Shown one piece after another: positions 7,597 to 11,891 of a DNA stretch of 64,000 bases. Position numbers and translations under genes: made by a program. The notes beneath the pieces were generated by a model. That model saw only the letters and a list, made by a program, of their open reading frames with translations. It did not search any database and was not told where the DNA came from. This stretch comes from Eledone cirrhosa (Eukaryota), in contig OZ024740.1 of NCBI GenBank assembly GCA_964016885.1, positions 424,700,001-424,764,000 of the forward strand. Direction: 5' to 3'. Each line of letters begins with the position of its first letter. The first letter of the stretch is position 1.

Positions 7597-7727
7597 ATAT
7601 ATATATATATATATATACATACATGCACACATATATATACCGAACATTTATTATAATATTCGGTTTGTTTGTAAACAAACAGCCCAAATTAAGCCGTACA
7701 GTGCTCGACAACCATCGTCGCCCTTTA

Positions 7728-7814
7728 GTTCAACACTGACACAGGAACGATGTACTAGTTTCACGCTTATTAGTTATCGTCAGCATCGTATACCTTCCTG
7801 TCAGATGATTGAAC
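7728..7814 (-). ncRNA. Family D hammerhead with mutated stem II
   Basis: Core CUGACGA, GAAA and GUA are intact, but stem II reads aact/agcg (two substitutions). Confidence 0.6.
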
Positions 7815-8404
7815 GTCTGTAAGTATATACTTTCCTTATGTATATTAACGGCTGAGTAGCCCAATTTGCATATCGAGTGGGTTAATCGGCCGGGCGTACC
7901 GAAAAAGATAAATGGAAAAGAATGAAGCGAAATTTCATTTCTCACTCTTAGTACGGCTGATACCTAAATATAAGTATGTATACGTACATATATTTGTACA
8001 AACGCACAGTAGTATGTATATATATACATACATGCACACACATATATATATATATATGTACGTATGGGTTTACCGAACATTTATTATAATGTACGGCGTA
8101 ATTGGGGTTGTTTGTTTACAAACAAACCGAACATTATAATAAACGTTCGGTAAACCCATACGTACATATATATATGTGTGCATGTATGTATATATATACA
8201 TACTACTGTGCGTCTGTACACATATATGTATGTACATATACATACTTATATTTAGGTATCAGCCGTACTAAGAGTGAGAAATGAAATTTCGCTTCATTCT
8301 TTTCCATTTATCGTTTTCGGTATGCCCGGCCGACTAACTCACTCGATATGCAAATTAGGCTGCTCAGCCGTTAATATGCATAATGAAAATATATATTTTT
8401 AGAC

Positions 8405-8491
8405 GTTCAATCATCTGACAGAAAGGTATTCGATGCTGACGATAGCTAATAAGCTTGAAACTAGTACATCGTTCCTGTGTCAGTGTTGAAC
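8405..8491 (+). ncRNA. Type I hammerhead ribozyme, family D
   Basis: CGAUG CUGACGA u AGCU aaua AGCU u GAA ACUAGU A CAUCG, with stem I extended by ctgaca/tgtcag and gttcaa/ttgaac. Confidence 0.85.
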
Positions 8492-9101
8492 AATAGGGCG
8501 ACGATGGTTGCCGAGCACTGTACGGCGTAATTCGGGCTGTTTGTTTACAAACAAACCGAACATTATAATAAATGTTCGGTAAACCCATACGTACATATAT
8601 ATATGTGTGCATGTATGTATGTATATACATACTACTGTACGTCTGTACACATATATGTATGTACGTATACATACTTATATTTAGGTATCAGCCGTACTAA
8701 GAGTGAGAAATGAAATTTCGTTTCATTCTTTTCCATATATATATATATATATATATATATATATATATATATATATATATATATATATATATATATATAT
8801 ATATATATGTATATATATATATATATATATATATATATATATATGTATATATATATATATATATATATATATATATATATATATATATATATATATATAT
8901 GTATATATATATATAAGTATGTACACGTGCATACATATATGTATACAGACGTGCAGTAGTATGTATATATATATACATACATGCACACATATATATATGT
9001 ACGTATGGATTCACCGAACATTTATTATAATGCTCGGTGTGTTTGTAAACAAACATCCCGAATTACGCCGTACAGTGCTCGGCAACCATCGTTGCTCGTT
9101 T

Positions 9102-9188
9102 GTTCAACACTGACAAAGGAACGCTGTACTAGTTTCAAGCTTATTAGCTATCGTCAGCAACGTATACCTTCCTGCCAGATTGTTGAAC
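9102..9188 (-). ncRNA. Type I hammerhead ribozyme, family D
   Basis: Reverse complement reads ACGUUG CUGACGA u AGCU aaua AGCU u GAA ACUAGU A CAGCGU with a long bulged stem I. Confidence 0.85.
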
Positions 9189-9527
9189 GTATATACTTAC
9201 CTTATGCATATTAACGGCTGAGTAGCCCAATTTGCATATCAAGTGGGTTAATCGGCCGGATGCACCGAAAACGATAAACGGAAAAAATGAAACGAAATTT
9301 CATTTCCCACTCTTAGTACAGCTGTTACTTAAATATAAGTATGTACACGTACATACATATATATATACAGACGTACAGTAGTATTTCATTATTTTTATTT
9401 CATTCCTTTTATTTTGATCATGCTTTATTTTTATTTTTATTTTTAATTTCATTCGCACCGTTTCCTTTCGTTATATGTCTCTCCACCACTCCCCTACACA
9501 CCCTTTGAACTCTGTTCCCACACACTT

Positions 9528-9563
9528 CTCACCTGAGGAAGGGCTTATGCCCGAAACGTCGTT
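9528..9563 (+). ncRNA. Penelope-type minimal hammerhead motif with weak stem I
   Basis: CUGAGGA a GGGC uuau GCCC GAA ACGU C; only 2 bp of stem I (ac/gt). Lies in a ~270 bp pLTR-like piece (9385-9655) containing aataaa. Confidence 0.6.
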
Positions 9564-11891
9564 CCCCACCACCACCCCACTCTCTAGAGCGTGAAATTAA
9601 TAAACATTCATTGTACTGCCTCTCTGTTTTGTTCCTGTTCAAATTTTTCCATTATGTATATATATATACATACATGCACACATATATATATGTACGTATG
9701 GATTCACCGAACATTTATTATAATGCTCGGTGTGTTTGTAAACAAATATCCCGTATCAAGCCGTAGTTCAGCAACCATCGCTGCTCGTTTGTTCAACACT
9801 GACAAAGGAACGCTAATAAGCTTGAAACTAGTACAGCGTTCCTTTGTCAGTGTTGAACAAACGAGCAACGATGGTTGCTAGACACTACGGCTTAATACGG
9901 GTTGTTTGTTTACAAACACACCGGGCATTATAATAAATGTTCGGTGAATCCATACGTACATATATATATGTGTGCATGTATGTATAATATATATATGCAT
10001 ACTACTGCACGTCTGTATACATATATGTATGTACGTGTGCATACTTATATTTAAGTAACAGCCGTACTAAGAGTCGGAAATGAAATTTCGTTTCATTTTT
10101 TCCGTTTATATATATATATATGTATATATGTATAGATATATATCAATTCCAATGAAAGATTCATTTTAGATATTCTCAGAAACACAGGAAGACTGTAGCT
10201 ATAACTATCTCCCACCCCTTTCTACGCATGAATATGTTTGTGTATACACATATATATGTTTGTGTATACACATATATACACATACATAATCGTTGTTATA
10301 TACTTATATCAATTAATGTATTATATGTTTGTTTATGCGTATGTATATATTGTGTGTTAGTTTGTTTGTGTGTTTAAATGATTCTCTCTATTGTTTGTAT
10401 ATGTGTGCGTATATATGTGTTTGCGTGTTGAATTCTGTGTGCGATTGTGTGTATATTTTGTCATGTGTATAATTGAGTTTAAACATGTATGTCTATATGT
10501 ATGTATGTATGTATGTATGTATGTATGTATGTATGTATGTATGTATGTATGTATGTATGTATATGATGTATGTATGTATATGATGTATGTATATGATGTA
10601 TGTATGTATGTATGCATGTATGTATGTATATAATGTATGTATGTATGTACGTATGTATGTATGTATGTATGTATGTATGTATGTATGTATGTATATGATG
10701 TATGTATATGTATGTATTATGTATGTATATATGTATGTATGTATGTATGTATGTATGCATGTATATGTATGTATATGATGTATGTATGTATATGTATGTA
10801 TGTATATAATGTATGTATGTATGTGTGTATGTATGTATGTATGTATGTATGTATGTATGTATGTATGTATGTATGTATATGTATGTATGTATATATGTAT
10901 GTATGTATATATGTATGTATGTGTGCATGTATGAATGTATGTATATATGTATCTATGTATGTGCGTTAAATATATATATATATGTGTGTGTGTGTGTGTG
11001 TGTGTGTGTGTGTGTGTGTGTGTGTGTGTGTGTGTGTACGTTAAATATATATAAATAAATATATATATATGTATGTCTGTCTGTTCTGTTCGGCTGATTG
11101 TTGCGCCCGGTAAACGTATATTTTGGAGAAACACTGAGCCAACCTAGGGTTCAGTGCCGCTGACCTTCTCTTGTCACAAGGCTGAGCTGGAGAGAGGGTT
11201 TCAACGAATCGGTAAATCAAGACATGAATCTGGATTAGATATCGGTCTACTGTGCTGCACTGTGAAGAATTTGTTGTAGAGTTAGTGGAGGAGGAGTGGG
11301 CTGAGGGAGGGAGAGAGAGGGAGAGAGAGAGTTAGAGAGAGGGAGAGAGAGAGTTAGAGAGATGGAGAGAGATAGAGAGAGGGAGAGAGAGGGAGAAAGG
11401 GGGAGAGAGAGGGAGAGAGAGATAGAGAGAGAGGGAGAGAGGGGGAGATAGAGAGATAGAGAGAGGGAGACAGAGGGAGAGAGAGAGTGGGAGAGTGGGA
11501 GATGGAGAGAGAGAGAAAGAAAGGAGAGTGAAATAGCGAGAGTTAACTAACTAGGTAGATAGATAGCTAGAGAGAGAGAGTGTGGGAGAGAGAGAAAGAA
11601 AAGAGAGTGAAAGAACTAGCTAGCTCAATAGATATATAGATAGATAGAAGAGGGAAAGAGAGTGAAGTGAGAGAGGAAGAGAGAGAGAGAGGGAGAGGGA
11701 GAGAGAGAGGGAGAGAGAGAGAGAGAGAGAGAGAGAGAGAGAGAGAGAGAGAGAGAGAGAAAGAAAGAACGTGAGCGTGTGATAGTGAAAGAGAGAGAGA
11801 GGAAGAGAGTGAAAGGGCGAGAAATATATATATATATATATATATATATATATAAGAAATATATATATGTATATAAGAGTGATATATAGAT

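What the first reader, a model, noticed from the sequence alone, without database searches (positions are those of the whole stretch)
7620..10108. Family D: candidate non-LTR retrozyme (~420-430 bp ORF-less tandem monomer, one hammerhead per monomer)
Seen: copies here, at 37461-37978 and at 58366-58850 exceed one monomer and read head-to-tail (periods 429, 420, 420 bp). They share a fixed 3' end running into (TA)n, have variable 5' ends, and have no real ORF. Stem I covaries between subfamilies (CGUUG/CAGCG vs CGAUG/CAUCG) and extends further with bulges. Known: metazoan non-LTR retrozymes are tandem monomers of a few hundred bp with type I hammerheads that yield circular RNAs, proposed to be mobilised by PLEs. 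Inference: more-than-unit-length inserts are what reverse transcription of a circular or multimeric RNA would give. No copy here has two hammerheads in direct tandem.
Basis: partly seen in the sequence, partly recalled or inferred. Interest (0 to 1): 0.85.

Follow-up and report, generated by a model that had tools for sequence, protein, structure and literature searches.

The report
Hammerhead retrozyme with Penelope-type two-armed insertions
This is one spot of a very abundant, protein-free 420-base repeat that carries a hammerhead-ribozyme motif in each unit, forms long head-to-tail arrays elsewhere in the genome, and has the same insertion ends as the genome's Penelope-type jumping genes, so it likely spreads as a predicted self-cutting, possibly circular RNA that borrows their copying enzyme.

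Summary
Observation confirmed and extended. The unit is 420-434 bp, lacks a conserved ORF, and has one type I hammerhead core: stems I and II covary, and stem III is a tiny palindrome. 7602-10109 is two insertions, each made of two back-to-back arms; the second is split by a nested element. Across sampled copies one arm ends 273 nt after the cut site and the inverted arm 217 nt after it, both in (TA)n. An autonomous Neptune-like Penelope element (PLE) in this genome shows the same two-ended footprint. In short insertions the tandem units and mirror arms share one haplotype and are equally diverged, as expected if one template was copied in one event. Some long arrays were amplified later at DNA level. 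No fixed join to a PLE ORF was found, and the partner PLE is unidentified. Cleavage, expression and circles are untested. Verdict: a new member of the animal non-LTR retrozymes, with genomic footprint evidence for the proposed PLE mobilisation.

The parts
7602..8099 (-). Insertion 1 (subfamily D2), inverted arm, q85 through the cut site to q165, cut short at the internal TA tract
   Evidence: BLAST arm map; 6.0% substitutions to the main arm
7753..7783 (-). Type I hammerhead core with two of four stem II pairs broken (likely inactive)
   Evidence: sequence
8092..8740 (+). Insertion 1 main arm, 1.5 units, period 429, q53 to the fixed end q273, then (TA)n
   Evidence: tandem overlap 3.6% substitutions
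8436..8466 (+). Intact hammerhead core, predicted cut after GUA at 8466; stem I CGAUG/CAUCG
8735..8915 (.). (TA)n target microsatellite between the two insertions
   Evidence: TRF
8908..9384 (-). Insertion 2 (subfamily D1), distal part of the inverted arm, q163 through the cut site to the second fixed end q217
   Evidence: 3.7% to 9653-9814 and to the main arm; 7.8% to the D2 arm
9127..9157 (-). Intact hammerhead core; stem I CGUUG/CAGCG
9385..9652 (+). Nested 268-bp piece of another family with a minimal hammerhead-like core (9533-9562), sitting in the internal TA tract of the D arm
   Evidence: D coordinates resume q165 to q163 across it; sequence
9653..9814 (-). Insertion 2, proximal part of the inverted arm, q2-165
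9812..10109 (+). Insertion 2 main arm, q399 (half a core) through the cut site to q273, then (TA)n
37459..37978 (-). D1 copy, about 1.15 units, period 421, core 37762-37732, ends at q273; 39-bp inverted piece at 37940-37978
58366..58850 (+). D1 copy, about 1.1 units, period 420, core 58547-58577, ends at q273; about 20 bp of inverted remnant at the left end (read by eye)

Best explanation
Family D is a protein-free 420-434 bp tandem repeat with one type I hammerhead motif per unit and Penelope-type insertion ends, so it is likely a non-LTR retrozyme whose transcripts are predicted to self-cut into monomers, would be closed into circles, and are likely copied into (TA)n by a Neptune-like Penelope (PLE) reverse transcriptase/endonuclease. 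Steps: (1) Tandem copies exist (shown). (2) They are transcribed (inferred; promoter unknown). (3) The hammerhead cuts after GUA (motif and covariation shown, catalysis inferred), probably as a dimer, because stem III is 1-2 bp with a palindromic loop and stem II has a U.U at its base. (4) Host RtcB-type ligase closes the monomer (inferred from PMC7229834). (5) A PLE enzyme primes at (TA)n and starts at q273, just behind a 3' hairpin, reading back through the cut site for a variable length, and a second, inverted arm runs to q217 (ends shown, enzyme inferred). (6) Some arrays grow later by DNA duplication (shown for L190, L194, C12).
For: Motif: 24,157 D cores and 40,100 D+E-type cores vs 0 and 2 in controls. 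On 12 hand-picked variants, 93.2% of cells pair, 7 of 16 pairs change on both sides, and slid controls give 31-49%. Five monomers at 62-89% identity have only three invariant runs of 6+ nt, two of them the core.

Tandems: C12 38.7 kb with 62 full units; C28 21.6 kb with 49.

Footprint: of 72 arms in 44 of 47 sampled loci, 39 end at q262-273 and 23 at q213-221; 51 of those 62 have a TA-rich flank; 25 of 37 head-to-head pairs have one end of each kind. D4 and E show two ends too, about 51 and 73 nt apart. An RT/GIY-YIG-type PLE of this genome (L044) has the same design: 17 of 34 rows end at one site and 11 end 141 nt short of it. Craig et al. (PMC8557442, section 6 read) describe partial tandems, inverted 5' copy, one-sided tail and (TA)n bias as PLE hallmarks.

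One template per event: discordance at 10 common variant sites is 2.9% within an arm, 1.9% between mirror arms and 32.9% between loci. In 18 insertions, within-arm and mirror divergence match (3.0% vs 2.9%, Spearman 0.82, Wilcoxon p 0.59); C28 divergence is flat over lags 1-12 (6.3-7.0%). 55 of 72 arms read through the cut site.

Fold: the circular monomer is 69% paired (z -8.8, 40 shuffles) and keeps stems I and II.
Against: No Rfam hammerhead model scores it. Stem III is minimal and stem II opens with U.U, so single-motif cutting may be poor; Li et al. found cleavage in only 1 of 9 Xenopus retrozyme dimers (10.64898/2026.07.22.740005, Results read). Copy ends do not pile up at the cut site: 4 of 62 5' ends lie in q1-20 vs 3 expected; 34 vs 15 pattern matches for 3' breaks, of which 13 of 30 vs 8 of 15 inspected were ends by a crude rule. 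Uncut linear multimers from a young homogeneous array would leave the same footprint as a circle. In L190 the ABAB pattern (lag 2: 0.6-1.1%) is younger than the mirror arm (2.7%), and in L194 one allele is confined to the main arm, so long arrays are not all single RT products. The covariation set was hand-picked and related, with family E counted three times. No PLE with a D-like pLTR or tail was found.
Confidence: 0.7

Rival explanations
1. A non-autonomous PLE derivative copied from linear, uncut multimeric transcripts; the hammerhead cuts rarely or only frees transcripts, circles play no part, and arrays grow by DNA duplication.
For: Autonomous PLEs make the same two-armed footprint with no evidence of a circle. 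Weak stems II and III. Later DNA-level amplification in L190, L194 and the rearranged C12 array. No excess of ends at the cut site.
Against: Old arrays are 3-7% heterogeneous, yet insertions carry one haplotype, and 9 long units on both arms of L192 share 3 private alleles with 1 singleton. The core and its pairing are kept across families only 62% identical, which suggests selection for cutting.
Confidence: 0.2
2. D is simply the pseudo-LTR of an ORF-bearing PLE, seen as 5'-truncated partial tandems.
For: PLE-type ends; hammerheads are typical of pLTRs (PMC8557442 and PMC6765202, passages). Xenopus retrozymes resemble pLTRs (10.64898/2026.07.22.740005). Single D-to-PLE joins exist (L044, L205).
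Against: Longer copies extend into more D units, up to 85 cut-site crossings, never into an ORF. 46 of 46 non-TA 5' flanks are unique. No repeated PLE join among 428 cores. The 3' region of the L044 PLE has its own, different hammerhead, and the window's PLE family shows no D match next to its EN. A rare parent below about 1% of copies is not excluded.
Confidence: 0.07
3. A satellite DNA spread by unequal crossing-over or circular DNA; the ribozyme motif is a passenger.
For: 20-40 kb arrays, higher-order repeats and later duplications.
Against: Thousands of dispersed copies with two fixed ends, variable 5' ends, TA targets and inverted arms; compensatory changes in the ribozyme.
Confidence: 0.03

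Closest known systems
Metazoan non-LTR retrozymes (coral, Mytilus, axolotl; Cervera and de la Pena 2020, PMC7229834; parts 2-4 of 6 read: Results and Discussion; supplement not readable)
   Same: Short ORF-less tandem unit (they give 150-450 bp), one type I hammerhead per unit, GC under 50% (here 37%), self-paired predicted circle, PLEs in the same genome. The ribozyme combines features they list for axolotl: palindromic minimal helix III (Amex1) and a U.U at the base of helix II (Amex2); both cut better as dimers.
   Different: Unrelated sequence, at the long end of the size range. Their cleavage and circles were measured; here they are not. The parts read describe no fixed ends, inverted arms or TA targeting.
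Vertebrate retrozyme survey (Li, Clavereau and Pollet 2026, bioRxiv 10.64898/2026.07.22.740005; parts 1-3 of 5 read; supplements closed)
   Same: Monomers, dimers and multimers; 'active' criterion of two consecutive complete cores is met; PLE origin proposed.
   Different: Their PLE link rests on co-occurrence and pLTR homology; here no homologous pLTR was found, and the link rests on the insertion footprint. No mollusc in their sample as described in the text.
EN+ Penelope-like elements, Neptune/Naiad insertion pattern (Craig et al. 2021, PMC8557442; section 6 and passages read)
   Same: 5' truncation, partial tandems, inverted copy at the 5' end, a tail at one end only, (TA)n bias, hammerhead near the 3' end.
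   Different: No ORF; the unit is 0.42 kb rather than 3-4 kb; the tail is 56 nt (paper: 30-40 bp; 141 nt in the L044 PLE); tandems reach tens of units.

Membership tests
non-LTR retrozyme | Head-to-tail unit of about 150-450 bp | tested here: met
   420-434 bp for D1, D2, D4; D3 484-502; E 467; arrays
non-LTR retrozyme | Type I hammerhead in consecutive units | tested here: met
   Tandem cores listed; covariation; Rfam negative
non-LTR retrozyme | No protein coding | tested here: met
   Longest ATG frames 99, 102, 51, 30 aa, not shared among subfamilies
non-LTR retrozyme | GC under 50% and highly self-paired circle | tested here: met
   GC 37%, 69% paired, z -8.8; prediction only
non-LTR retrozyme | No LTR, PBS or PPT | tested here: inconclusive
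   Ends are variable-5'/fixed-3', not LTR-like; PBS and PPT were not searched
non-LTR retrozyme | Self-cleavage in vitro | not testable with these tools
   Needs transcription assay
non-LTR retrozyme | Expression as linear and circular monomer RNA | not testable with these tools
   Needs northern blot, RNase R, divergent RT-PCR
non-LTR retrozyme | Autonomous PLEs in the same genome | tested here: met
   L044 element with 556-aa open stretch; Atlas neighbours carry HTH_animal, RVT_1, GIY-YIG; local Pfam and PDB gave no supporting hit; 150 of 150 scored EN hits at 91-99% among 62,311 candidates
PLE-mobilised insertion | Fixed 3' end, 5' truncation, inverted 5' copy, one-sided tail, (TA)n bias | tested here: met
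   same pattern in the L044 PLE
pLTR of an autonomous PLE | Recurrent join to an RT/GIY-YIG ORF at a fixed position | tested here: not met
   (sample of 428 cores, not the whole genome)

The most novel reading that the evidence does not exclude
A Penelope-type enzyme copies one small circular RNA by rolling circle from both ends of a nicked (TA)n target, at two fixed start points 56 nt apart, and writes two back-to-back strings of up to dozens of units in one event. The star-like 21-kb C28 array would then be a satellite born in a single retrotransposition, and family D a natural substrate for reconstituting PLE integration and circRNA-to-DNA copying.
Probability: 0.35. Interest if true: 0.75.

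Novelty: new member of a known kind. Interest (0 to 1): 0.5.

Why it matters
The two main papers propose, but do not show, that PLEs mobilise animal retrozymes and that tandem copies come from reverse transcription of circles; both call the mechanism open, and Craig et al. say the PLE transposition cycle itself is undefined. Family D gives tens of thousands of copies, some very young (0 differences between arms in L178), with two base-precise ends, a matching footprint in a resident autonomous PLE and within-insertion haplotypes. That makes the helper and the template testable. At about 13 cores per Mb (40,100 in 3.0 Gb) it is roughly three times denser than the axolotl count (126,247 motifs, 28 Gb); the search rules differ, so the comparison is rough.

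Tried and rejected
Sequencing runs: no RNA holder listed; six runs of unknown kind, three organisms. Nothing was laid on the sequence, so presence in organisms B and C (shares 0.39, 0.37) is unchecked and expression is open.

Rfam: no hammerhead match; the miRNA matches are inverted-repeat artefacts.

Simple fold-back of the nascent cDNA as the source of the inverted arm: junction offsets lean small (19 of 35 within 0-120 nt, 10 expected; Rayleigh p about 0.02), but the inverted arm is the longer one in 16 of 35, so it is not sufficient. L1-type twin priming: main-arm 5' ends do not sit at q217.

Dimer circle for ABAB arrays (L190, L195, L039): first favoured, then dropped for L190 because its mirror arm lacks the A/B alleles; open for L195, which has no mirror arm.

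In vivo cleavage read from copy ends: the D 1.7-mer that stops within 2 nt of the cut site and is joined to the 5' end of the L044 PLE is a single case, and genome-wide patterns show no clear excess.

Partner PLE: relaxed core patterns gave 198, 112 and 1,582 matches. The 90 loci examined were D variants, D4, E or scattered other cores, with no recurrent PLE join.

A fixed LINE target site in D (lead from scan notes): not seen among the non-TA ends; only q76 occurs twice, with different flanks.

Constrained hammerhead energies failed (structure string of wrong length); only the MFE values (-9.5 to -13.5 kcal/mol) stand.

Literature: no cephalopod retrozyme paper came up. The giant-squid paper counts 235 Rfam hammerheads only (PMC6962438, passages). 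The supplements of PMC7229834 and of the 2026 preprint could not be seen and may list cephalopod repeats.

Full report
Observation. Positions q count from the first base after the predicted cut. The window holds five complete cores of the form CUGANGA / 14-nt stem II / GAAA-CUA-GUA. Periods are 429, 421 and 420 bp. No two cores lie in direct tandem here. Rfam gives no hammerhead at gathering score, nor among 150 of 166 listed weak matches, so the identification rests on the motif and its covariation.

Anatomy of 7602-10109. Arm mapping shows two insertions, each of two arms joined at their 5' ends. Insertion 1 (subfamily D2) is 8092-8740(+), ending at q273 in (TA)n, plus 8099-7602(-), cut short at the internal TA tract; the core in that arm has two broken stem II pairs. 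Insertion 2 (D1) is 9812-10109(+), ending at q273, plus an inverted arm that runs q2-165 (9814-9653), is interrupted by 268 bp of another hammerhead-bearing family, resumes at q163 (9384) and ends at q217 (8908). Its three pieces differ by 3.1-3.7%, against 7.8% to the D2 arm.

The ribozyme. Stem I has 5-6 pairs, a bulge and further pairs. Stem II has 4 pairs over a U.U, a G-C in family E, and C.A or C-G in D4. Stem III is A-U, C-G with the palindrome ACUAGU. On 12 hand-picked variants from D1-D4 and E, 93.2% of cells pair (shuffles 82.3%, 0 of 500 as high), 7 of 16 pairs change on both sides, and slid controls give 31-49%; the rows are related, so this is not a probability. Five monomers at 62-89% identity share only three invariant runs of six or more bases, two of them the core. 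Cervera and de la Pena describe axolotl hammerheads with a palindromic minimal helix III or a U.U at the base of helix II, weak as monomers and efficient as dimers. GUA occurs in some natural hammerheads (PMC1636495, abstract start in the listing).

Genome context. G000 is 3.0 Gb. It holds 24,157 exact D cores (control 0) and 40,100 cores of the wider type (control 2). Head-to-tail arrays lie at C12:20,397,211-20,435,919 (62 full units, 85 cut-site crossings, internal rearrangements) and C28:43,949,828-43,971,382 (49 full units).

Insertion footprint. I sampled the first places on C1 of a 3'-proximal motif (6,959 matches): 47 loci, three dropped (two under 85% identity, one running off the stretch), 72 arms; one duplicated locus is counted twice. 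39 arms end at q262-273, 23 at q213-221 and 10 elsewhere; 51 of the 62 fixed ends have a TA-rich flank; 55 arms cross at least one cut site, 17 cross two or more, and 43 exceed 420 bp. Over all mapped loci, 25 of 37 head-to-head pairs have one end of each kind. D4 and E also have two ends. A near-complete PLE at L044 has RT- and GIY-YIG-type motifs and a cysteine motif upstream of the EN, which Craig et al. give for Neptune and Nematis. Its Atlas neighbours carry HTH_animal, RVT_1 and GIY-YIG, though local Pfam and PDB gave nothing. Its copies end at one site (17 of 34 rows) or 141 nt short of it (11 of 34), mostly into TA. This matches the tandem/inverted/tail pattern Craig et al. describe for PLEs, and is the main evidence that a PLE enzyme moves D.

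Not a pLTR. Long D copies extend into further D units. All 46 non-TA 5' flanks differ. Of 428 non-redundant cores in 209 loci, 14 had a same-strand PLE ORF within 1.3 kb; 10 of these were separated by a TA run, and the other four met different ORF positions. The L044 chimera is not among these cores because its core has a substitution. A rare parent element is not excluded, and the helper is unnamed.

Template. At 10 common variant sites, units of one arm disagree in 73 of 2,552 comparisons, mirror arms in 12 of 638, and different loci in 34,276 of 104,144. In 18 of 24 insertions examined (those with both measures), within-arm and mirror divergence are alike (3.0% and 2.9%), L192 shows three private alleles across nine long units on both arms, and the C28 array is equally diverged at every lag. 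This fits one template copied repeatedly in one event, across a seamless cut-site junction: a circle or an uncut multimer. Against a pure one-event view, L190 has a young ABAB pattern not shared by its mirror arm, L194 has an allele in the main arm only, and C12 has higher-order repeats, so DNA-level growth also occurs. Copy ends show no clear excess at the cut site; the single chimera ending there is suggestive only. Simple fold-back does not explain the inverted arm, which is the longer in 16 of 35 cases.

Mechanism. Shown: tandem ORF-less unit, conserved covarying core, two fixed ends, TA targeting, one haplotype per insertion, a resident PLE with the same footprint. Inferred: transcription, cleavage (probably dimeric), ligation to a circle, and copying by a Neptune-like enzyme starting behind the 3' hairpin at q273 and again at q217. 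I put the retrozyme-plus-PLE reading at about 0.9, the circle as the usual template at about 0.55, and the best explanation as worded, with the circle step hedged, at 0.7.

Comparison and novelty. It meets every sequence-testable criterion that I tested for the animal non-LTR retrozymes (8, 13, 16); PBS and PPT were not searched, and cleavage and circles are untested. Searches brought up no cephalopod case; mussel retrozymes are published, and unseen supplements may list more. The host is probably an octopod (recalled SINE likeness), not established. Scan notes read late report the same two-armed pattern in other genomes; they are unchecked AI notes and no support, but they show the pattern is not unique to this family. 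Searches returned no notes.

Verdict. Real feature; new member of a known kind; interest 0.5, for footprint evidence that bears on the open question of how animal retrozymes and PLEs integrate.

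Noticed in passing
L044 = G000:C12:24,318,000-24,322,600: Near-complete Neptune-like PLE (3.2 kb period, broken by frameshifts). Its pLTR carries a type I hammerhead-like fold with an about 70-nt insert in loop 2 and a GUA triplet (read by eye); its 5' end is joined to a D 1.7-mer that stops at D's cut site.
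   Followed up: partly
window 15234-16147: Remnant of another PLE family (RT C-terminal part and GIY-YIG-type EN); 150 of 150 scored genome hits at 91-99% identity, some in open frames over 700 aa.
   Followed up: partly
L036 6389-6419; L091; G000:C1:5,738,326-5,752,444: Family E: 466-467 bp relative (62% identical) with a G-C at the base of stem II, GUU/GUC triplets, a 31-core array and two fixed ends about 73 nt apart.
   Followed up: partly
D monomer about q311-318 (window about 8349-8356): An octamer motif ATGCAAAT is shared by D and E (343 of 480 redundant D units exact); a snRNA-type internal promoter is a recalled possibility, and a paper search gave no direct support.
   Followed up: partly
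window 9533-9562, 19804-19774, 25577, 27665, 41233-41285, 57893-57953: Further hammerhead-like cores of other repeat families, two of them as inverted pairs.
   Followed up: no
window 7478-7592 and 27240-27498: Palindromic element of about 115-128 bp in (TA)n, tandem at 27.3 kb; it abuts the truncated inverted arm.
   Followed up: no
L017 1916 onward (G000:C2 about 207.86 Mb): A D copy whose 5' end joins TTAGGG-type telomeric repeats at an interstitial site.
   Followed up: no
L016, L024 (G000:C1478): An 83-bp piece of D (q83-165) amplified with (TA)n into a minisatellite upstream of an intact copy.
   Followed up: no
window 7245-7340: SINE-like repeat that I recall as typical of octopus genomes (recalled, no call). 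With a nearest named PLE homologue from Argonauta (39%) this suggests an octopod host; not established.
   Followed up: no
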